From positions 32,001 through 96,000 of the IMG/VR virus record IMGVR_UViG_3300020577_004280: a stretch of 64,000 nt of DNA, one strand, 5' to 3'. Below the pieces are notes generated by a model. The model was not told the origin of the DNA and did not search any database. It saw only the letters and a program-made list of their open reading frames with translations. Shown here in pieces: positions 13,490 to 45,903 of the stretch. Position 1 is the stretch's first letter, and the number at the start of each line of letters is the position of its first letter. This DNA is from a virus. Lineage: Duplodnaviria > Caudoviricetes. Both the position numbers and the translations under genes were made by a program.

Positions 13490-13680
13490 TGAAAATCAAT
13501 TATAAGGTTACAAGCAGAGATTCAGAATATTTGAATTTACTATCCAAAATTCTTGAAAACTTCAGTTTACTATTAATTCCAGTATATATTTGTCTATTAG
13601 CAATAATAATACTATATTGGAAAATAATATTAGCTACATTAATTGTTGTAGTAGTAATTAAACAATTTATACCGAGATAG
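13489..13680 (+). CDS. small membrane protein
   Basis: Hydrophobic ORF; end overlaps the following RNA. Confidence 0.5.
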   Translation: MKINYKVTSRDSEYLNLLSKILENFSLLLIPVYICLLAIIILYWKIILATLIVVVVIKQFIPR

Positions 13681-13793
13681 CTCAGGTAGCAGAGCAACAA
13701 AGTCCAGTGAATTATTCATTATTTGCCAGTAATGGATGCGGAATAATCTACATATCAATTTGTAGGTCGTAGGTGCGAGTCCTACTCTCGGTT
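13671..13793 (+). ncRNA. Y RNA-like (YrlA-type) RNA with tRNA-like termini
   Basis: ACCGAGA/TCTCGGT acceptor, GCTC..GAGC D arm, GTAGG-TGCGAGT-CCTAC T arm; anticodon arm replaced by TTTGCCA-GTAA-TGGATG...TACAT stem; directly upstream of Ro60. Confidence 0.75.
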
Positions 13794-13855
13794 TTATTAC
13801 ATTGTCCTTTTAGGAAACTTAAACCATCGCTAAGCGATGTAGAGGAATGAAAATC

Positions 13856-15427
13856 ATGGTAAACAAATCAATGTTCAAAACTAACACACAAACAAAGCTT
13901 GTAAAGAACGAAGCTGGTGGTAACGCCTTCAGTCTTTCTGACGAAAATGCTCTATGTCAAATGGTTGTAACCAACTGTTTTAATGGAGTATATTACTCAA
14001 GTGCCGAAGAACTATTAAATAACGTGAAAAACATCCTAAAAGGATGTAGTTCACAATTAGTAGCTAAAGCCGCTGTGTATGGCCACGAGCAAGGTAGAAT
14101 GAAGGATATGCCAGCGTATCTACTAGCTGTTTTAGCTGCTCGCGGCGAAACAAAACTAGTTAACAGAATCTTCAATAGAGTTATTACTAACGCTAAAATG
14201 TTGTGTAACTTTGTACAAATTATTCGTAGCGGTGAAACTGGTCGTAAGTCATTTGGTTCTTCAATTAAGAAACTAATCCAAAATTGGCTAAATAATAGAA
14301 CACCAGATAGATTGTTTGATGACGCAGTTGGTCACGCCAAACCATCGTTAGCAGATGTAATTAAGATGGTTCACCCAAAACCATCTACTCCAGCACACGA
14401 AGCTATGTTTGCTTACCTAATCGGTAAGGATTATAATTGGGAAGTTATGCCAGAAAGAGTACGTCAATACGAAATCTTTAAGAAAACATCTGAAGGAAGT
14501 GTACCACAAGTAGATTTTCGTCTTTTGTCCAATCTGAAGTTATCTGACCTTCAATGGCGTGAAGTAGCTCTTAATATGAGATGGGATACATTACGACGTA
14601 ACCTAAACACAATTGGTCGTAATAATGTTCTCACTGATGATAAAACAGTAAAACTACTAGCTCGTAAACTAGGAGATGGAGAAACTGTACGGAAAGTGAA
14701 AGCTTTCCCATACGAATTACTTACAACTTATCTAAACGCTACAGACTTACCACAAACTCTTAAAAACTCACTACACGACGCTCTAGAAGCTTCTGTAGAT
14801 AATATTCCTGATTTCGGTATTAAGACTGTAGTATGTGTAGATACATCTGGTTCAATGTCCTCACCAATTACTGGTAGTCGTGGTACTGCTACTAGCAAGG
14901 CAACTTGTGTACAAGTAGCATCAGTTATCGCGGCATCAATATTGCGTAAGAATAGCGAACACACTTTAGTATTACCGTTTGATACATCTGTTCACTCTAT
15001 TCAAATTGATGGTAGAGATACTATCATGACTAACTCCCAAAAATTAGCTAGAAATGGTGGTGGTACAGATTGTAGTTGTGCATTACGTCACCTTAACCAC
15101 ACAGACCATAAGGCTGATTTGGTAATTTATGTATCTGATAATATGAGTTGGGCAGATTATGCTAGTAATCGAGGAGGATGTTGGTGGGCTGGCGGGTATA
15201 ATAATATCACCGGAACTAAAGCTGAATGGCAAAGCTATAAAAAACGTAACCCAAACGCCAAATTAGTTCTTATTGACCTACAACCATATACTACAACTCA
15301 AGTTAGTGATAGTAAGGATGTACTTAATATTGGCGGTTGGAATGATGCTCAATTTACAGCAATCGAAAGATTCGTAAATGGAGAAAAATTAGATTTTACC
15401 AAGATAATAAAAGAAACCACTATCTAA
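13856..15427 (+). CDS. rsr: Ro60/Rsr TROVE-vWA RNA-binding protein
   Basis: NEAGG N-terminus, RMKD, DVIKMVHPKP, TLRRNL, VDTSGSM MIDAS, GGGTD, VSDN; start moved from 13847 for SD spacing. Confidence 0.92.
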   Translation: MVNKSMFKTNTQTKLVKNEAGGNAFSLSDENALCQMVVTNCFNGVYYSSAEELLNNVKNILKGCSSQLVAKAAVYGHEQGRMKDMPAYLLAVLAARGETKLVNRIFNRVITNAKMLCNFVQIIRSGETGRKSFGSSIKKLIQNWLNNRTPDRLFDDAVGHAKPSLADVIKMVHPKPSTPAHEAMFAYLIGKDYNWEVMPERVRQYEIFKKTSEGSVPQVDFRLLSNLKLSDLQWREVALNMRWDTLRRNLNTIGRNNVLTDDKTVKLLARKLGDGETVRKVKAFPYELLTTYLNATDLPQTLKNSLHDALEASVDNIPDFGIKTVVCVDTSGSMSSPITGSRGTATSKATCVQVASVIAASILRKNSEHTLVLPFDTSVHSIQIDGRDTIMTNSQKLARNGGGTDCSCALRHLNHTDHKADLVIYVSDNMSWADYASNRGGCWWAGGYNNITGTKAEWQSYKKRNPNAKLVLIDLQPYTTTQVSDSKDVLNIGGWNDAQFTAIERFVNGEKLDFTKIIKETTI

Positions 15428-15445
15428 CGATAGTGTATTATGGAA

Positions 15446-15516
15446 AATTCCGAATGCTCGTGTCGATTACATCGAAAATGATTTCACCAAAAAATCGCAC
15501 AATTTTTGTCGGATTT
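15446..15516 (+). ncRNA. minimal Y RNA-like element 1
   Basis: TCCGA-ATG...GTGTCGATT-ACAT...AATCGCAC-AATTTTTG-TCGGA. Confidence 0.7.
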
Positions 15517-15546
15517 ATCTTTTAAACTACGTTTTCATCAGAAAAC

Positions 15547-15556
15547 GGTGTATAAT
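15547..15556 (+). promoter_or_regulatory. putative phage promoter GGTGTATAAT
   Basis: 45 nt upstream of ORF 15601. Confidence 0.45.
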
Positions 15557-15600
15557 ACTGTGTAAGATGTTAGTTAATTAAAACGGAGATTAGAAGTATC

Positions 15601-15759
15601 ATGAAGAAAATTATTAGTTTAGTATGTGTTTTAGCTATTGTCACATCAGTTGGAATTGCTGAAGCTGGTAAAAAGGGTTGTCGTAAAGGTAAGTGTTCTG
15701 CGCAAACCTGTGCTTGCGGTGTAAACTGTCAATGCGGCGATAATTGTAATTGTAAGTAA
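15601..15759 (+). CDS. secreted Cys-rich metallothionein-like peptide (52 aa)
   Basis: Signal peptide ending AEA, then GCRKGKCSAQTCACGVNCQCGDNCNCK; GGAG SD. Confidence 0.65.
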   Translation: MKKIISLVCVLAIVTSVGIAEAGKKGCRKGKCSAQTCACGVNCQCGDNCNCK

Positions 15760-15804
15760 TAATTAGAGTTTTGCTGTTCTCAATTATCAAAAACGGCAAT
15801 TTAT

Positions 15805-15876
15805 CGCGGGTGGTAGGTCAGCATCTTCTAACCCTCATAAGGTTAGCAAACGTCGGGCGGCACGACGACTCCGCAA
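15805..15876 (+). tRNA. tRNA-Met(CAU), atypical
   Basis: TAACC-CTCATAA-GGTTA; C1:A72-like mismatch; T loop GGCGGCA. Confidence 0.65.
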
Positions 15877-15877
15877 T

Positions 15878-15944
15878 TTCTCAAATGCTTTAGTAAACTA
15901 CATAGGCTTTTATCTAAATAACGTTTACTTGATTTTGTTGAGAA
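15878..15944 (+). ncRNA. minimal Y RNA-like element 2
   Basis: TTCTCAA-ATG...AGTAAAC-TACAT...GTTTACT-TGATTTTG-TTGAGAA. Confidence 0.7.
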
Positions 15945-15950
15945 TTATAC

Positions 15951-16021
15951 AGCCAGTGGCAGGTAGGCATCTGGAAACCTCCCATAAGGGTTTTTAAGGA
16001 ATTCGATTTTCCAACTGGCTA
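15951..16021 (+). tRNA. tRNA-Met/Ile2(CAU), atypical
   Basis: AGCCAGT/ACTGGCT, AACCT-CCCATAA-GGGTT, GGAA-TTCGATT-TTCC. Confidence 0.65.
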
Positions 16022-16040
16022 CTAATCTTTGAGAGAAAGT

Positions 16041-16131
16041 ATGACAAAATATACACTAGATGAATTAACGAACGCTGTAAAAATAGTTTTAGTATTTCTG
16101 CTGATATTGGCAAAAACAAAAATATAGTAAA
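16041..16131 (+). pseudogene. internally deleted HNH endonuclease remnant
   Basis: MTKYTLDELTNAVK(NSFSIS) joined to a YWQK end; both ends resemble ORF 16910-17770. Confidence 0.45.
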
Positions 16132-16132
16132 A

Positions 16133-16207
16133 GGGCTATTGGCACAGCGGCAACTGCAATAGATTTACATTCTATCCCAATCGTAGGTTCGAGTCCTACA
16201 TAGCCCA
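16133..16207 (+). tRNA. tRNA-Val(UAC)
   Basis: GGGCTAT/ATAGCCC, ATAGA-TTTACAT-TCTAT, canonical T arm. Confidence 0.9.
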
Positions 16208-16210
16208 TTT

Positions 16211-16337
16211 TGGTCGGTAGTTTAAGTAAAATGTACAAAGTTTAACTACCATCTCTTGCTGAGGAATCAGATGCTCGGCTAGTTTACATATTCTTCTGGT
16301 AAAGGAAAGATGTGGGTATCAAATCCCACCCGACCAC
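16211..16337 (+). ncRNA. tRNA-Thr(GGU)-like / Y RNA hybrid
   Basis: TGGTCGG/CCGACCA acceptor, TTCTT-CTGGTAA-AGGAA anticodon arm, GTGGG/CCCAC T arm, inserted CTTGCTGA-GGAA-TCAGATG...TACAT arm. Confidence 0.7.
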
Positions 16338-16378
16338 TATAATTAAGTTATGGCAACTAGCCATATAGGATTTTATCA

Positions 16379-16591
16379 TTGTCAGAGACAATAAAGGAAA
16401 AGAAAATGCAAAAAGTAGACATGTCGGTTAAGGGACAAAATCGTAGGGTTTATCTAGAGAAGGCTATTAATAAGAATAGCTGGCTAGCTAGAGTATATGT
16501 AGGAAGCTCTGTAGTATCTGGAAAATTAGTAAAATATTCCAATGGTGCCAAGAGATTCTATCCATTAGGTAAAAATGCTAATCTAATTTAG
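16379..16591 (+). CDS. small basic hypothetical protein
   Basis: ORF; likely start ATG 16406. Confidence 0.55.
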   Translation: MSETIKEKKMQKVDMSVKGQNRRVYLEKAINKNSWLARVYVGSSVVSGKLVKYSNGAKRFYPLGKNANLI

Positions 16592-16728
16592 ACTTACCCG
16601 CCATGTGTGGGAAAAGATGTCGCACCGTCTCTAATACAGGCGAGGCGAATTTAATAAAACGGTTGGTGACGGTTATCCAAAATTAGCTAATGCTCCGGCT
16701 TCAAAACTAATTTAAAAACTGAAGATAT

Positions 16729-16816
16729 TCCAGTGGGGGTACTAACGGTAGTATCGTTCGGCTGTTAACCGAAAATGGGAGAAATCCCTATGCAAGTTCG
16801 AGTCTTGCCGCTGGAG
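16729..16816 (+). tRNA. tRNA-Asn(GUU) with long variable arm
   Basis: TCCAGTG/CGCTGGA-G, TTCGG-CTGTTAA-CCGAA, V arm GGGA-GAAA-TCCC. Confidence 0.85.
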
Positions 16817-16818
16817 CT

Positions 16819-16885
16819 AATCTGAATACTCATAAGAAGTACATATCTGTTAAATATCAATCCTTCTTATATCTCTTGTCAGATT
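16819..16885 (+). ncRNA. minimal Y RNA-like element 3
   Basis: AATCTGA-ATA...ATAAGAAG-TACAT...CTTCTTAT-ATCTCTTG-TCAGATT. Confidence 0.7.
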
Positions 16886-16909
16886 CTTCTAAATACATAG
16901 TATAATAAA

Positions 16910-17770
16910 ATGAGTCAAAACCCAAAACTTACCAAGGAGATATTATCTCCATTAATTAATAAAGGTCTGAATGGAAGAGAAATAGCAGAAACTCTAGGTT
17001 ATTCTATATCTTATATACAACATCTAATGAGCAGATTAAATCTTAAATGTATAAGTAAAGATAAATATAAAAAAGATAAAATTGAAAAAGCCGTAAAAGA
17101 TTCGTTGTGTTTTAAAGATGTCTGTAGAAATCTGGATATTTCCCACCAAGGTGGAGCCTATATTAAACTAAAAATTCTTATTAAAAAATATAACATAGAT
17201 TGCTCCCATTTTCTTGGTAGTTCAGCATACTCTGGTAAAAGAAGAAAAAATTATCAGCCCGCCAAAAACGTGTTGCACGATAAGCATGAATTTAGGGTAT
17301 CATCAGAACAATTGAGAAGCCAAATGCTTGCCAACGGATTTGAATACATATGCGTAGAATGTGGGCAACAACCAGTTTGGAATAATAAACCTCTAACATT
17401 GCATATTGACCATATAAACGGTAACAATTGCGATAATCGAAAAGAAAATTTAAGATTTTTGTGTCCACACTGTCATAGCCAAACACCTAATTTTGGAAGT
17501 AAAAATTCTAAAAGAAATAAGAAAATATATTATTGTTTATGTGGCAATAAGAAAGAGAAAAAGTCAATTTCTTGCCAACAATGTTGTGTATTAAGAAAAA
17601 ATGACAAAATTCCTAAAAAAGAAGAATTAGAAAATCTTATTTGGGTAATACCCTCTACACATATAGCTAAAAAATATGGAGTGAGTGATAGAGCTATCGG
17701 AAAATGGTGTGTTAAATATAATATTGCTAAACCACCAAGAGGGTATTGGTTGAAAAATAAAGTGGTCTGA
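16910..17770 (+). mobile_element. HNH homing endonuclease
   Basis: LHIDHINGNNCDNRKENLRFLCPHCHSQT; HTH termini; C-terminal PPRGYW; stop lies inside tRNA-Phe. Confidence 0.85.
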
Positions 17771-17834
17771 GCCGGTATGGTTATGGCTTCCGCTTGAAAT
17801 CCGGAAAAAATAAGTTCAATTCTTATAGACCACA
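17762..17834 (+). tRNA. tRNA-Phe(GAA)
   Basis: GTGGTCT/AGACCAC, loop TTGAAAT, ATAAG-TTCAATT-CTTAT. Confidence 0.75.
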
Positions 17835-18030
17835 CTATTAGCAAAAGTAACCAACTATCGCTATTGGAGTAGACGGTGTTGTAGATTTGCTAACTCTTAT
17901 TTTACAATTAATTTCGGAGTAGTTAACCGATACGTGTTAGTTTGTAAAATATTTTCCAAGTTTAGTAAAATTTGGTGGTGGGAAGGTGCAAACACCCTCA
18001 TGTTCGGTCTAACATTAAAATAGACCATAT

Positions 18031-18103
18031 AGTGTCGAAGATTTGATAGTAAATCGGGTGGTCTGGAGCCATCAGACTGTGAGTGCAACTCTCACCGACG
18101 CTA
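18031..18103 (+). tRNA. tRNA-Pro(UGG), atypical
   Basis: AGTGTCG/CGACGCT, GGTGG-TCTGGAG-CCATC, GTGAG-TGCAACT-CTCAC. Confidence 0.6.
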
Positions 18104-18105
18104 CT

Positions 18106-18180
18106 ATCCGAATGTCAGTTGACGATTACATATTAAACTTTTATTTTAATCAAAAATATCGTTAACAATCCTTGTCGGAT
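18106..18180 (+). ncRNA. minimal Y RNA-like element 4
   Basis: ATCCGA-ATG...GTTGACGAT-TACAT-ATTAAA-CTTTTAT-TTTAAT...ATCGTTAAC-AATCCTTG-TCGGAT. Confidence 0.75.
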
Positions 18181-18189
18181 TCATTTTAA

Positions 18190-18262
18190 GGGTCATTGGT
18201 GTAATCAGGAACACGATAGTCTTGCAAACTATAGTCATCGGAGCATAACCGATATGTATCCA
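18190..18262 (+). tRNA. tRNA-Ala(UGC)
   Basis: ATAGT-CTTGCAA-ACTAT; G3:U70; bulged acceptor; T loop AGCATAA. Confidence 0.75.
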
Positions 18263-18271
18263 CTCAAAATA

Positions 18272-18372
18272 TGTGAATGCCTGATAGGTTTACATAGCTA
18301 AATGGTAAAGCAAAGGACACAATCCTCGATTGTAGGTTCAAATCCTACTAACAACTTATCAATTTTGTCACA
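18272..18372 (+). ncRNA. Y RNA-like element with internal D/T arms
   Basis: TGTGA-ATG..TGATAGGTT-TACAT, D-like GCT-AAATGGTAA-AGC, AGGA/TCCT hairpin, GTAGG-TTCAAAT-CCTAC, AACTTATCA-ATTTTG-TCACA. Confidence 0.75.
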
Positions 18373-18455
18373 ACGAAGTCTTCCAAGTGCGATTCTTGAT
18401 AGAGCGACCTAAACGACAAATGTATTGAAAAACTTATAAAAAATTAAGGGAAACA

Positions 18456-20211: not shown

Positions 20212-20501
20212 GGGACCGTAAGGTTTTCGACTGGTAAGATAGTTAGCTAAATGGCAAGTAGAAGAACTCATGATGGCTTCTTTAAAAACATGAGACAAAC
20301 CAAATGCAAAATTTGCTCTAGCCGCTTAGTCGGATAGGTTGCTAGTGTCCGAAGAAACACTTTCTGACTCAGATAATTCTGAACATCATATCGGCTGTAA
20401 TAAGAGGGTTTGTTATTTAACCCAACCTAATAAATAACTAAACTTGTAGATGTTTTTCTGACGGCTATACTAGGACGGGGTTTCAATACCCCCGGTTCCA
20501 C
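20212..20501 (+). ncRNA. ssrA: tmRNA
   Basis: GGGACCG...TTCGAC 5' end, GACGGGG-T loop-CCCC-CGGTTCCA 3' end with G3:U70; tag frame GCA AAA TTT GCT CTA GCC GCT TAG (AKFALAA) at 20306-20329. Confidence 0.9.
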
Positions 20502-20513
20502 TTAAGGAGAATT

Positions 20514-21122: not shown

Positions 21123-21857
21123 ATGACAAAACTAAATCAGATTATTGCGTTAGTAAATGGTAAAAAGACCGCCGCTACCAAAGCCTTAACCGAAGTATAC
21201 AAGAAATTAGATAAGTCAGAATTATTTAATGGTATTACACGTAAGTATACACCGTTAGATGATAACGACGCTGAAAAGCTTCCGTCTGAAGCTAAGAATA
21301 TTCAGTTTACTGTTGGCGAAGCTATTAAGGAAGCCCGTAATATTATTACAGAATTATACGATATTACTCTCACACAAGACGTTGCCAACACTGAAGCTAA
21401 GGCTGATATTGTAGTTGATGGTAATGTTATCGCTGCCAATGTTCCGGTAACATATCTACTTTTCCTTGAAAAACAAGTTACAGACCTACGTACATTCGTT
21501 GGTAAGTTGCCAACGCTAGATGTTGCAGATGTTTGGAACTATGATACAAATAAGGATTGTTATGTTACTTCTCCTATTATGAGCAATCGCTCTAAGAAGG
21601 TTTACCGTAACCACGTTAAGGCAGAAGCTACGGAACATCATCCAGCACAAGTAGAAGTTTATACAGAAGACGTTAAGGTTGGTGAATGGCAAACTGTTAA
21701 ACTCAGTGGTGCAGTTCCAGCCAAAACTAAGAATGAAATGTTACTGAAGTTGACCAAGCTAGACGACGCAATCAAGATTGCTCGCGAACAAGCCAATTCA
21801 ATTGAAGTAAATAGTGCAAAAATTGGCGAAAATATCGCTAACTATGTTTTCGCTTAA
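21123..21857 (+). CDS. uncharacterised 244-aa protein with predicted helical segments, linked to downstream ncRNA
   Basis: AAGGA SD; KLNQIIA, VPVTYLLFLEKQ, RNHVKAEATEHHPAQV, AREQAN motifs. Confidence 0.85.
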   Translation: MTKLNQIIALVNGKKTAATKALTEVYKKLDKSELFNGITRKYTPLDDNDAEKLPSEAKNIQFTVGEAIKEARNIITELYDITLTQDVANTEAKADIVVDGNVIAANVPVTYLLFLEKQVTDLRTFVGKLPTLDVADVWNYDTNKDCYVTSPIMSNRSKKVYRNHVKAEATEHHPAQVEVYTEDVKVGEWQTVKLSGAVPAKTKNEMLLKLTKLDDAIKIAREQANSIEVNSAKIGENIANYVFA

Positions 21858-21859
21858 TA

Positions 21860-22210
21860 TGTAGGTACAGTCTAAGATTGAAGTTTAGATTAAAAGTCCT
21901 GTTCTAAAGATGTTGGCTCGGTACCAACCCTCGGCACTTTAACAATTCAAGCCGAGGTAGCCCAATGTGAGGCAAAGATGGGATGCAATAAAATTTAGAT
22001 TATCACCTAAGACTAAAAATACAGTATCTTTGTTTAATCGAGTCCCGTAATAATATAAAACCATAAATGAAGGCTCATTTCCTTCCCGCTCCTCTTTTAG
22101 GAAAATCCATAACACGGAGCGGTAGTATAAAGGTATTACGATGGTTTACTAAAGCTAAAATACGGGTTTAATGGATATCGTAAACAAAAAGCTATACGCG
22201 ATACTAACAT
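21860..22210 (+). ncRNA. ~350-nt structured RNA with two circularly permuted tRNA-like modules
   Basis: T arm, closed acceptor stem and D arm in that order at 21897-21984 and 22058-22147; the second is nested in CCCGTA/TACGGG, TTTGTTTA/TAAACAAA and AGTATC/GATACT stems. Confidence 0.8.
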
Positions 22211-22214
22211 TCAT

Positions 22215-22250
22215 GTCTGCCAGCCGGATATGCTGGCAGACGTTTTTCTT
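22215..22250 (+). terminator. intrinsic terminator
   Basis: GTCTGCCAGC/GCTGGCAGAC 10-bp stem followed by T run. Confidence 0.85.
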
Positions 22251-44414: not shown

Positions 44415-45427
44415 TGAAGATACGCGATGACCTAAAACTAGATTTCAACGACGTTCTAATAGAACCAGCAGTTAGTGAAGTAGTGTCAAGAAAAGATATA
44501 GACCTGACACGGAAGTACAAATTTAAACATTCTAAAGCAGAATGGGCTGGTTTTCCTATAGTAGCTGCCAATATGTATGCTACTGGAACTTATGAAATGT
44601 GGCAAAGTCTATCAAGTAAGAATTGTATGACGGCGTTACATAAATATAATGAAATAGTAAGCTGGCCGTTATTGTATAATGAGAATACAAAACCAACGTG
44701 GGATAACGTATGGTATACGCTAGGAATAGATGATGAGGCTCTTGATTATTTCGCTGAGTGTATAAGTAAATATCTACCGATGCGTTTTTTAATGATTGAT
44801 GTTGCAAATGGTTATATGACTAAGATGGTAGACTTCATAAAAAGGGTTAGAGAGAAATGTCCAACCCATACTATTTGTGCAGGCAACGTTTGTACAGCTT
44901 CCGCTACCGAACAATTAATTTTAGCTGGAGCCGATATAGTGAAGATTGGTATCGGCCCTTCAATAGTTTGTGATACTCGTATAGTAACCGGAGTAGGATA
45001 TCCTCAGTTAAGTGCTATTATTGAAACCGCTGATGTAGCCCATCACTACGATGCTCATATTATAGCTGACGGTGGCTGTAAAACAATCGGTGATATTAGT
45101 AAGGCTTTTGCTGCTGGTGCGGATTACGTGATGTTAGGTACAATGTTAACAGGCTATAAAGAAAACAGTGGTAAACGTATTAACGGTAAACTACAAGTCT
45201 TCGGTATGTCGTCAAATGATGCTCTCAATCAGTTTCATGGTGGTAAAGCTACACACAGAGCTTCAGAGGGTAACACGATAATGGTACCATATAAAGACGA
45301 AAGCGTAAAAACCATGATTGACGAAATCAAAGGTGGAGTTGCTAGCACATGCTCTTACGTTGGTGCTAAAAAACTCAAAGACCTTTCCAAATGTACAACT
45401 TTTATTAAGGTGAATAGGATAAAATGA
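44414..45427 (+). CDS. guaC: GMP reductase
   Basis: KLDFNDVL, AANM, DVANGY, KIGIGP.VC.TR, ADGG, EG. Confidence 0.92.
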   Translation: MKIRDDLKLDFNDVLIEPAVSEVVSRKDIDLTRKYKFKHSKAEWAGFPIVAANMYATGTYEMWQSLSSKNCMTALHKYNEIVSWPLLYNENTKPTWDNVWYTLGIDDEALDYFAECISKYLPMRFLMIDVANGYMTKMVDFIKRVREKCPTHTICAGNVCTASATEQLILAGADIVKIGIGPSIVCDTRIVTGVGYPQLSAIIETADVAHHYDAHIIADGGCKTIGDISKAFAAGADYVMLGTMLTGYKENSGKRINGKLQVFGMSSNDALNQFHGGKATHRASEGNTIMVPYKDESVKTMIDEIKGGVASTCSYVGAKKLKDLSKCTTFIKVNRIK

Positions 45428-45903
45428 TATTATATACTTGCGTGGGTCTACCAAGGTCTGGTAAATCCACATATTGCAAACAGTTTATTAAATTCAGGGG
45501 AAACCATTGTCTTATATCTGGAGATAGCGTAAGATTTGCATTAACTGGACAAAGATATAACTCGAATACTGAAGAAATAGTACACGCTATAAAATATATC
45601 TCAATTAAAGCAGCATTGTTAAACCATCAAAACGTGGTGTACGACGGAACAAATACCACGATGGATAGTCTTAAAAAAATAGAGAAAATAGCTCAAGATT
45701 ATGGGGCGAAACCTTACTTTTGGTTATTTGATACTTCTGTATCTTTATGTGTACAAAGAGCAATGCAAACAAAGCAAGACGATTTGATACCAATCATAGT
45801 TAATATGGGTAGTCAAATTACTCTAACTAAAGAATATATTAAACAAACCTATCCAAAAAACTACGGAATAATAACTAATGATAACGGCATATATACGTTC
45901 TAG
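45424..45903 (+). CDS. P-loop kinase (polynucleotide kinase-like, AAA_33)
   Basis: GLPRSGKST, D..R, DGTN. Confidence 0.75.
   Translation: MILYTCVGLPRSGKSTYCKQFIKFRGNHCLISGDSVRFALTGQRYNSNTEEIVHAIKYISIKAALLNHQNVVYDGTNTTMDSLKKIEKIAQDYGAKPYFWLFDTSVSLCVQRAMQTKQDDLIPIIVNMGSQITLTKEYIKQTYPKNYGIITNDNGIYTF

What the first reader, a model, noticed from the sequence alone, without database searches (positions are those of the whole stretch)
13671..18372. Phage Ro60 with a dispersed family of at least seven Y-like RNAs woven into the tRNA array
Seen: Ro60/TROVE gene plus seven elements (13671, 15446, 15878, 16211, 16819, 18106, 18272) sharing one pattern: a stem ending in (R)AT(G/A), a second stem followed by TACAT, its complement, then pyrimidine-rich TTG and the complement of the first stem. 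Stem sequences all differ yet still pair (TCCGA/TCGGA, TCTCAA/TTGAGA, TCTGA/TCAGA, TGTGA/TCACA), i.e. covariation within one genome. Five start within about 10 nt of a tRNA 3' end, so tRNA processing could release them. Known: bacterial Rsr loci typically carry a few Y RNAs and are linked to RNA repair or decay. Inference: an expanded, diversified Ro60-RNA toolkit acting during infection.
Basis: partly seen in the sequence, partly recalled or inferred. Interest (0 to 1): 0.85.

Follow-up and report, generated by a model that had tools for sequence, protein, structure and literature searches.

The report
Seven phage Y RNAs around Ro60
An uncultured 154-kb phage encodes the RNA-binding ring protein Ro60 and, among its tRNA genes, seven small RNAs that carry the known Ro60-binding "handle" of bacterial Y RNAs; two of them place that handle inside an ordinary tRNA frame, a layout I did not find described.

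Summary
A full-length Ro60/Rsr gene (13847-15427) is flanked, on the same strand, by seven RNAs with the same conserved pieces: AUGC, UACAU and YYUUG, set between two covarying helices.

Five are linear, at 15447, 15878, 16819, 18105 and 18270. A covariance model built only from Ro60-adjacent RNAs of other phage contigs finds exactly these five in the whole 154-kb genome (E 3e-7 to 1e-3; next hit E 0.6-0.7).

The other two, at 13670 and 16211, are not linear. They are tRNA frames that carry the handle in circularly permuted order, capped by a GNRA tetraloop, at or next to the anticodon arm.

The handle matches the Ro-binding core of the Rfam YrlA and YrlB consensus. Relatives hold canonical YrlA above Rfam's threshold. 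These are therefore Y RNAs, a known class that is also known in phages.

Three things look new:
- three architectures in one genome and no canonical YrlA;
- the tRNA-frame form, which recurs in two other contigs;
- anticodon-loop look-alikes on the short forms.

This scan has already noted arrays of handle-tagged RNAs beside phage Ro60-like genes on other DNA.

The parts
13670..13792 (+). tRNA-frame Y RNA 1. It has a 7-bp acceptor stem, a canonical D arm, a 5-bp anticodon stem, a 5-nt variable loop and a T arm. The anticodon loop is replaced by about 62 nt that carry the permuted handle (core 13711-13755; stem 1 capped by GUAA).
   Evidence: Read from the sequence. The permuted descriptor hits it; shuffled genomes give about 0.25 hits. 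ARAGORN in intron mode calls a tRNA with a 50-nt insert here. The handle fold costs -30.4 against an MFE of -35.7 kcal/mol, so thermodynamics alone does not favour it. Analogous RNAs occur in L003 and L062.
13847..15427 (+). Ro60/Rsr ortholog: TROVE ring plus a vWA domain with a MIDAS-like motif.
15447..15515 (+). Short linear Y RNA (YrlB-like), starting 20 nt after the Ro60 stop codon. Its 5' motif is UCCGAAUG.
   Evidence: R2 33.0 bits, E 1.4e-5; alignment.
15878..15944 (+). Short linear Y RNA. Its apical loop is CUUUUAU on a weak stem.
   Evidence: R2 25.0 bits, E 1.1e-3. Fold z-score -2.3.
16211..16338 (+). tRNA-frame Y RNA 2 (the less certain of the two). It has a 7-bp acceptor stem, a T arm and an anticodon-like hairpin with loop CUGGUAA. 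An extra arm carries the permuted handle (16243-16291; stem 1 capped by GGAA). The D arm is weak.
   Evidence: Stem 2 needs one bulge and competes with an alternative 7-bp helix that the MFE fold prefers.
16819..16885 (+). Short linear Y RNA, starting 1 nt after tRNA-Asn. Its apical hairpin has the 7-nt loop CUGUUAA, identical to the anticodon loop of that tRNA-Asn(GUU).
   Evidence: R2 39.9 bits, E 3e-7.
18105..18181 (+). Short linear Y RNA lying between a tRNA-like gene and a tRNA. Its apical hairpin has the loop CUUUUAU.
   Evidence: R2 31.9 bits. Fold z-score -3.2.
18270..18374 (+). Y RNA whose handle encloses a D arm, a short hairpin with a 5-nt loop, and a canonical T arm in normal tRNA order (Yrn1-like topology).
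   Evidence: R2 29.3 bits, E 1e-4; it was not in any training set. The interior scores 39.9 bits on Rfam tRNA with a broken acceptor stem and a 5-nt 'anticodon' loop.
16133..16207 (+). tRNA-Val(UAC), ending 3 nt before tRNA-frame Y RNA 2.
16729..16817 (+). tRNA-Asn(GUU), ending 1 nt before the Y RNA at 16819.
18031..18103 (+). tRNA-like gene (Rfam tRNA 39 bits; not called by ARAGORN; no U33), ending 1 nt before the Y RNA at 18105.
18190..18262 (+). tRNA gene (Rfam 39.1 bits, loop CUUGCAA), lying between the Y RNAs at 18105 and 18270.

Best explanation
The seven elements are genes for Y RNAs, the dedicated small-RNA partners of Ro60. They belong to the phage's own Ro60.

**The handle.** Each RNA carries the same Ro60 handle. 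A helix (stem 1) abuts a conserved asymmetric internal loop, with AUGC on one strand and AYYUUG on the other. A second helix follows, then UACAU. This handle corresponds to the Ro-binding core of YrlA and YrlB.

**The variable part.** Attached to the handle is one of three things:
- a small hairpin, often with an anticodon-like 7-nt loop (four short, YrlB-like RNAs);
- a D arm and T arm elbow in tRNA order (one Yrn1-like RNA);
- a whole tRNA frame with open acceptor ends, in which the handle is closed by a GNRA tetraloop and sits at or beside the anticodon arm (two RNAs).

**Inferred steps.**
- The RNAs are co-transcribed with the neighbouring tRNAs and cut out by the enzymes that process tRNA 5' and 3' ends. 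This inference rests on the 1-9 nt spacing.
- Ro60 binds the handle.
- As in Deinococcus and Thermus phage phiLo, the variable tRNA-like module tethers the Ro60 ring to a partner that recognises tRNA shape. The partner could be host PNPase or a tRNA-handling enzyme. This would redirect RNA decay or repair during infection.

**Shown here:** the sequence family, its covariation, its exclusive clustering beside Ro60, and its homology to the YrlA/YrlB handle.

**Not shown:** transcription, processing, binding or function.
For: **Specificity in this genome.** R2, trained only on other contigs, finds the five linear elements and nothing else in 154 kb. The strict descriptor gives four hits in 3 kb against about 0.65 per shuffled genome.

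**Family.** There are 60 hits in 82 Ro60-bearing contigs, all on the Ro60 strand. 15 of 15 pairs covary and 89% of cells are paired, against 59% when shuffled and 33-50% when slid. Within the window, 12 of 15 pairs covary.

**Link to the known class.**
- The Rfam YrlA and YrlB consensus sequences share AUGC, YUAC(AU) and UUGUCG with the handle.
- L050 holds a YrlA at 72.7 bits (threshold 69) and another at 63.7 bits.
- The short L050 element aligns to YrlB.
- The motif definitions GNCGAAN0-1G and YUAY come from PMC4201824.

**The protein is a true Ro60**.

**Precedent for a phage Ro60 binding phage Y-like RNAs and host PNPase:** Thermus phage phiLo, PMC12135203.

**The tRNA-frame form recurs.** It is seen at L003 8939-9069 and 9071-9199, where the MFE fold of the second reproduces the architecture unaided, and at L062 1602-1761.

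**Same arrangement in a cultured phage.** Myxococcus phage Mx1 has Y RNAs at 45169-45294 and 45521-45624. The second starts 3 nt after tRNA-Ile.
Against:
- Rfam's curated YrlA and YrlB models give no real hit in the window even at E 10. The one listed match (15 bits, E 9.5) is a tRNA-junction artefact.
- The window's 5' motifs are degenerate against GNCGAAN0-1G. Only two of the seven keep CGAA.
- For 13670 and 16211 the handle fold is not the minimum-energy fold. Stem 1 there is only 3-4 bp.
- Whether Ro60 accepts a handle closed by a tetraloop is unknown.
- All comparison loci were chosen because they hold Ro60. The association with Ro60 therefore rests on the whole-record searches and on the literature.
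Confidence: 0.8

Rival explanations
1. The tRNA-frame elements (13670, 16211) are real tRNA genes interrupted by an intron-like insert. The insert is removed to give working tRNAs, and its likeness to the handle is incidental or secondary.
For: - ARAGORN in intron mode calls 13671-13793 and L003 8939-9069 as intron-bearing tRNAs.
- In 13670 the nucleotides after the anticodon stem read G-U-CCA-G, so U33 is present and the insert lies at the classical 37/38 position.
- 16211 keeps a full anticodon-like hairpin with loop CUGGUAA.
Against: - The inserts are 50-60 nt, far too short for the group I introns known in bacterial and phage tRNA genes. This rests on my own knowledge.
- The implied loops are atypical: G32 and G37 with CCA in 13670, and an AUG anticodon in L003.
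- The inserts share the exact single-stranded motifs of the linear Y RNAs.
- L003 9071-9199 has no anticodon stem at all.
Confidence: 0.07
2. The RNAs work mainly without Ro60, as decoys or baits that present anticodon stem-loops and tRNA elbows to host tRNA-cutting defence nucleases or to tRNA-modifying enzymes. The conserved handle serves stability or another protein.
For: - 23 of 60 family members have a hairpin of at least 4 bp with a 7-nt YU-NNN-R-N loop right after UACAU. About 18 of these are not T loops. Shuffled sequences give 1.7 +/- 1.2.
- The loop at 16819 equals that of the adjacent tRNA-Asn.
- The RNAs lie in a phage tRNA array.
Against: - The handle is the part conserved with experimentally Ro60-bound YrlA and YrlB.
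- In this genome the RNAs occur only next to Ro60.
- A decoy role and Ro60 binding are not mutually exclusive.
Confidence: 0.1
3. The elements are not stable RNAs. They are DNA- or transcript-level punctuation of the tRNA operon (processing signals, terminators, or a selfish repeat that spread through the array).
For: They lie in intergenic gaps tightly abutting tRNAs. Their apical parts are AT-rich.
Against: - The helices differ in sequence yet stay paired, so this is not a copied repeat.
- No terminator-like U tracts follow them.
- Homologs in GC-rich phages keep the structure and carry full tRNA-like domains.
Confidence: 0.03

Closest known systems
YrlB (Rfam RF02565; Salmonella Typhimurium Rsr-bound Y RNA; Chen et al. 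2013/2014)
   Same: The four short elements share its layout: a terminal helix, AUGC, a second helix, UACAU, a small apical hairpin, and UUUG plus the complement of the terminal helix (consensus shown).
   Different: The Rfam model (gathering score 97 bits) gives no hit in the window. The sequences are AT-rich, the CGAA core is degenerate, and there are four paralogs rather than one. Some apical loops mimic anticodon loops.
YrlA (Rfam RF02553; Chen et al. 2014, PMC4201824; structure in Wang et al. 2018, 10.1101/312249)
   Same: It has the same handle (CGAAUGC ... YUAY ... UUGUCG), sits beside Ro60 on the same strand, and carries a tRNA-like D/T elbow. Relatives of this phage carry bona fide YrlA.
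   Different: YrlA is a circularly permuted tRNA: the order is V-T-acceptor hairpin-D, the acceptor stem is closed, and the ends lie in the handle. The window has no such RNA. Its tRNA-bearing forms are either in normal order inside the handle (18270), or are normal tRNA frames with open acceptor ends and a closed handle (13670, 16211).
Deinococcus radiodurans Yrn1
   Same: The D-like and T arms are in tRNA order, with an anticodon-arm-like hairpin between them that has a loop shorter than 7 nt. This is described in PMC4201824 and matches 18270-18374.
   Different: No sequence similarity was tested. In Yrn1 both strands of the metazoan-like Ro helix are retained.
Thermus phage phiLo Ro60 with Yrl1 and Yrl2 (PMC12135203)
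   Same: A phage-encoded Ro60 with phage-encoded Y-like RNAs next to the gene. Binding and a ternary complex with host PNPase were shown in vitro.
   Different: There are two RNAs there and seven here. The Ro60 is a distant relative (about 23% identity). No tRNA-frame forms are described.
Circularly permuted tRNA genes of algae and archaea (cited in 10.1101/312249)
   Same: They show that tRNA and permuted-tRNA topologies can interconvert. The window holds both topological relatives of one module.
   Different: Those are processed into working tRNAs. Nothing suggests that here.

Membership tests
Bacterial/phage Y RNAs (YrlA, YrlB, Yrn1 class) | Encoded close to a Ro60/Rsr ortholog and on the same strand. 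| tested here: met
   All seven lie within 3 kb of Ro60 on the + strand. There are none elsewhere in the 154-kb genome.
Bacterial/phage Y RNAs (YrlA, YrlB, Yrn1 class) | The 5' motif GNCGAAN0-1G (PMC4201824). | tested here: inconclusive
   Relatives match it fully, for example GGCGAAUG. In the window two elements read UCCGAAUG. The others read CAAAUG, UGAAUA, UGAAUG, UGGAUG and CAGAUG, each with a compensating change on the 3' strand.
Bacterial/phage Y RNAs (YrlA, YrlB, Yrn1 class) | A conserved YUAY after the second helix and a UUG before the 3' strand of the terminal helix, as in the Rfam YrlA and YrlB consensus. | tested here: met
   UACA and UUG are invariant in alignment A2 and present in all seven elements.
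Bacterial/phage Y RNAs (YrlA, YrlB, Yrn1 class) | At least one Y RNA per genome carries a tRNA-like domain. | tested here: met
   18270 has D and T arms (Rfam tRNA 39.9 bits). 13670 is called a tRNA with an insert.
Bacterial/phage Y RNAs (YrlA, YrlB, Yrn1 class) | Bound by Ro60 in vivo or in vitro. | not testable with these tools
   This needs RIP or EMSA.
Rfam RF02553 YrlA | Score at or above the gathering threshold (69 bits), with the permuted order V-T-acceptor hairpin-D. | tested here: not met
   There is no genuine hit at E up to 10 in the window. No window element has the T-acceptor-D order.
Rfam RF02565 YrlB | Score at or above the gathering threshold (97 bits). | tested here: not met
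   No hit in the window. Even the GC-rich relative L050 5164-5235 reaches only 22.6 bits. The model is very narrow.
Ro60/Rsr protein | A TROVE HEAT-repeat ring followed by a vWA domain with a MIDAS motif. | tested here: met
   vWA_Ro60 gives E 2.8e-11; TROVE is sub-threshold for the single sequence. The profile matches PDB Ro60 chains over residues 13-505. The DxSxS...T...D set is invariant.
Canonical tRNA (for 13670 and 16211) | A cloverleaf with a 7-nt anticodon loop, called by standard tRNA finders. | tested here: not met
   Neither ARAGORN in default mode nor Rfam tRNA calls them. 13670 is called only when a 50-nt 'intron' is allowed.

The most novel reading that the evidence does not exclude
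The tRNA-frame Y RNAs are a distinct functional class. They are matured like tRNAs, with open acceptor ends, and may receive CCA. They carry Ro60 where the anticodon should be. Together with the short Y RNAs that display anticodon-loop copies, one of them identical to the neighbouring tRNA-Asn loop, they would form a phage toolkit. That toolkit would aim Ro60, and through it host PNPase or repair enzymes, at tRNA-directed host defences, or would bait anticodon nucleases. They may also preserve the ancestral topology from which permuted YrlA arose.
Probability: 0.2. Interest if true: 0.85.

Novelty: new variant of a known kind. Interest (0 to 1): 0.55.

Why it matters
Ro60 and Y RNAs are conserved from bacteria to humans, where Ro60 is a major autoantigen. 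What the tRNA-like part of bacterial Y RNAs binds is still open.

This phage offers one Ro60 handle joined to three kinds of cargo in a single genome. One of them is a form with ordinary tRNA topology, which bears directly on how YrlA evolved from tRNA.

The anticodon-loop look-alikes and the tRNA-array setting suggest a link to the conflict between phages and host nucleases that cut tRNAs.

The work also shows that curated Rfam models miss AT-rich Y RNAs, and that such RNAs go unannotated in a cultured phage, Myxococcus phage Mx1. One of them is annotated there as a 40-codon gene. Mx1 could therefore serve as a laboratory system.

Tried and rejected
**Searches that found nothing useful**
- Rfam at gathering threshold and at E 10, on the whole window and on small sub-ranges, gave no Y RNA family hit.
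- Megablast of the region against phage records gave no match.
- A single-protein scan of IMG/VR found no relative. A profile scan was needed.
- The sigma-70 promoter scan was no better than shuffles (33 sites against 30.6). No terminators follow the elements.
- R2 found nothing within 6 kb of the Mx1 Ro60 gene. The whole-record search then found two Y RNAs 11 kb upstream.

The closest Ro60 relatives (88, 78, 75 and 72% identity) could not be fetched, so the tRNA-frame forms could not be tested for compensatory change in near kin.

**Analyses abandoned**
- MAFFT alignments of the tRNA-frame forms were mis-registered. I therefore built no third covariance model and relied on descriptors and ARAGORN intron mode.
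- My regex classification of D and T arm order was unreliable. It mislabelled L029 8892-9045, and I discarded it.

**Readings considered and rejected**
- A copied repeat or MITE: the helices differ in sequence.
- A promoter reading of TACAT: the motif is conserved in GC-rich relatives inside a folded RNA.
- A tRNA intron: kept only as a minor rival.

Full report
**Setting**

The window is bases 32001-96000 of a 154,037-bp IMG/VR virus record. The record is linear, CheckV estimates it about 82% complete, and its GC content is 34%. The finding covers a dense field of RNA genes around one large ORF.

**The protein**

ORF 13847-15427 (+, 526 aa) hits Pfam vWA_Ro60 at E 2.8e-11. TROVE scores 20.8 bits, just below its 23-bit cut-off. 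More than 6,600 homologs have E at or below 1e-20. Most carry TROVE plus vWA_Ro60, and many lie on contigs of 150-180 kb. A profile of the protein with 21 homologs matches solved Ro60, Rsr and phiLo Ro60 structures over nearly the full length, at E 1e-21 to 2e-30. A DxSxS...T...D set is invariant. The protein is a genuine Ro60 ortholog. The nearest cultured-phage relative is Myxococcus phage Mx1, at 45% identity.

**The five linear elements**

They lie at 15447-15515, 15878-15944, 16819-16885, 18105-18181 and 18270-18374.

- A strict descriptor run over the whole genome on both strands finds four of them plus two weak hits. Shuffled genomes give about 0.65 hits. The fifth element has a bulged second helix.
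- I built model R1 from 20 short elements, then used it to collect 60 matches in 82 contigs that encode Ro60 relatives. Every match is on the Ro60 strand.
- Model R2 was built from those 60 matches alone, with no window sequence. Run with filters off, it recovers all five window elements at 39.9 to 25.0 bits (E 3e-7 to 1e-3). The next hit has E 0.73. The remaining 90 kb of the genome gives nothing better than E 0.62.
- Covariation is strong across the family. 15 of 15 pairs change on both sides and 89% of cells are paired, against 59% when shuffled and 33-50% when slid. That alignment is fitted to the model, which favours the structure.
- Covariation also holds among the five paralogs of this one genome. 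12 of 15 pairs change on both sides, and 0 of 500 shuffles reach that.

**What they are**

Chen et al. 2014 (PMC4201824) define bacterial Y RNAs by three features: proximity to Ro60 on the same strand, a 5' GNCGAAN0-1G motif, and, in YrlA, a YUAY before the tRNA-like domain.

The Rfam consensus lines printed show AUGC, CUAc and cUuGucGcc in YrlA. In YrlB they show GaAUGC, UUACAU and UUUGuCg.

Relatives of this phage carry full YrlA RNAs:
- L050 5248-5382 scores 72.7 bits against a gathering score of 69.
- L050 4968-5103 scores 63.7 bits.
- Many other elements contain a T arm, an acceptor-like hairpin and a D arm.

The window's elements are therefore Y RNAs. Rfam's own models do not detect them. 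The likely reasons are AT-richness, a degenerate CGAA core, and the absence of the permuted tRNA domain. The four short elements have the YrlB layout. Element 18270 encloses a D arm, a hairpin with a 5-nt loop and a canonical T arm in normal tRNA order. That is the arrangement described for Deinococcus Yrn1.

**The two non-linear elements**

13670-13792 is a clean tRNA frame with these parts:
- a 7-bp acceptor stem;
- a standard D arm;
- a 5-bp anticodon stem;
- a 5-nt variable loop;
- a T arm.

Its anticodon loop is replaced by about 62 nt that read, in order:
- the 3' strand of stem 2;
- AUUAUUUG;
- a 3-bp stem 1 capped by GUAA;
- AUGC;
- the 5' strand of stem 2;
- CUACAU.

This is the handle, circularly permuted and closed by a GNRA tetraloop. 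ARAGORN in intron mode calls it a tRNA with a 50-nt insert.

16211-16338 has an acceptor stem, a T arm and an anticodon-like hairpin with loop CUGGUAA. An extra arm has the same permuted order, capped by GGAA. Its D arm is weak, and its stem 2 competes with another helix.

The same architecture recurs next to Ro60 in two unrelated contigs:
- L003 8939-9069 and 9071-9199. For the second, the unconstrained minimum-energy fold reproduces the acceptor stem, D arm, a 10-bp stem 2, the internal loop, a 6-bp stem 1 with a GCAA cap, and the T arm.
- L062 1602-1761, found through ARAGORN intron mode and read by eye.

In the papers I could read, YrlA is described as a permuted tRNA with a closed acceptor stem. 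Only M. smegmatis YrlA is opened, by RNase P. I found no description of a genomically encoded form in tRNA topology. I rate 13670 at about 0.75 and 16211 at about 0.6 as true handle-bearing RNAs.

**Anticodon-loop look-alikes**

This lead came from other first-stage notes on this genome, and I tested it myself. Of 60 distinct family members, 23 have a hairpin of at least 4 bp with a 7-nt loop of the form Y-U-NNN-R-N within 36 nt after UACA. About 18 of these are not T loops. Shuffled segments give 1.7 +/- 1.2, with a maximum of 7.

In the window, 16819 carries CUGUUAA, which is identical to the anticodon loop of the tRNA-Asn(GUU) gene that ends 1 nt upstream. 18105 carries CUUUUAU. 15878 carries the same loop on a weak stem.

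**Context**

The Y RNAs abut tRNA or tRNA-like genes by 1-9 nt. The same spacing is seen in Mx1, where a Y RNA starts 3 nt after tRNA-Ile and is annotated as a 40-codon CDS. Co-transcription and release by tRNA end-processing are therefore plausible, but this is inferred.

The genome encodes an RNA ligase family protein (PF09414) about 40 kb away. It has no RtcB and no CCA-adding enzyme.

Arrays of 4-8 Y RNAs are usual in this clade: L032 has at least 7, L030 at least 7, and L028 and L044 have 4 each. In one complete relative they are spread over 38 kb.

**Mechanism**

By analogy with Deinococcus (cited in PMC4201824) and with Thermus phage phiLo (PMC12135203), the handle binds Ro60. In phiLo the phage Ro60 binds two phage Y-like RNAs and forms a complex with host PNPase. 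The variable module would tether the ring to a partner that reads tRNA shape. Which partner, and whether the anticodon mimics act as baits for tRNA-cutting defences, is open.

**Limits**

- There is no expression or binding evidence.
- The comparison loci were selected through Ro60.

This scan has recorded similar arrays of handle-tagged RNAs beside phage Ro60-like genes on other DNA. I did not use those notes as evidence.

**Verdict**

The feature is real and belongs to a known class. Three aspects go beyond the descriptions I could read: three architectures in one genome, the tRNA-frame form, and the anticodon mimics.

Noticed in passing
window 15806-15875 and 15950-16021: Two cloverleaf-like RNAs whose 7-nt loops contain CAU (CUCAUAA and CCCAUAA). 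The second has a canonical UUCGAUU T loop. Neither ARAGORN nor Rfam tRNA calls them, even at E 10.
   Followed up: partly
window 15601-15759: A 52-codon ORF with a ribosome-binding site, a hydrophobic N-terminus and a Cys-rich tail that looks like a metallothionein or a small secreted peptide. It sits between two Y RNAs.
   Followed up: no
window 16910-17770: An HNH endonuclease with helix-turn-helix domains, inserted in the tRNA/Y RNA array. Its last codons overlap the start of tRNA-Phe (17762).
   Followed up: no
window 18031-18103: A tRNA-like gene (Rfam 39 bits) with the 'anticodon' loop GAGCCAU, which lacks U33, and the T loop UGCAACU. It is probably another tRNA mimic rather than a decoder.
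   Followed up: partly
window 20212-20503: A phage-encoded tmRNA (Rfam 86 bits) at the end of the same RNA gene field. It is followed by a cupin gene and the DUF7873 gene with its own tRNA-mimic RNA (21123-22250), which another note of this scan covers.
   Followed up: no
L096 1522-1625 (OR576727.2 45521-45624): In the cultured Myxococcus phage Mx1, a Y RNA with a full handle, an anticodon-like loop (CUGGAAA) and a T arm is annotated as a hypothetical 40-aa CDS (WNM70101.1). A canonical YrlA at 45169-45294 is unannotated. Both lie 11 kb upstream of the Mx1 Ro60 gene.
   Followed up: partly
L003 8785-8862: A tRNA-shaped RNA next to Ro60 whose anticodon arm is a 7-bp helix capped by a GUGA tetraloop, so it has no anticodon and no handle. 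It is a further kind of tRNA mimic in these arrays.
   Followed up: no
window 13769-13785; L003 8836-8852 and 9043-9060; L028: A recurrent T-loop variant, UGCRAGU, with G in place of the usual U55. It appears in Y RNA and tRNA-mimic T arms of several contigs and would not be a TruB substrate.
   Followed up: no
G002 (record of L005) 119156-156868: In a complete 173-kb relative, five handle-bearing RNAs lie on the Ro60 strand but are spread up to 38 kb from the gene. The '4 kb from Ro60' rule of thumb therefore fails in large phages.
   Followed up: partly
genome G000:C1:4037-4534 (outside the window): An RNA ligase family (PF09414) ORF of 335 aa, E 1e-25. It is a possible RNA repair partner encoded by the same phage.
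   Followed up: no
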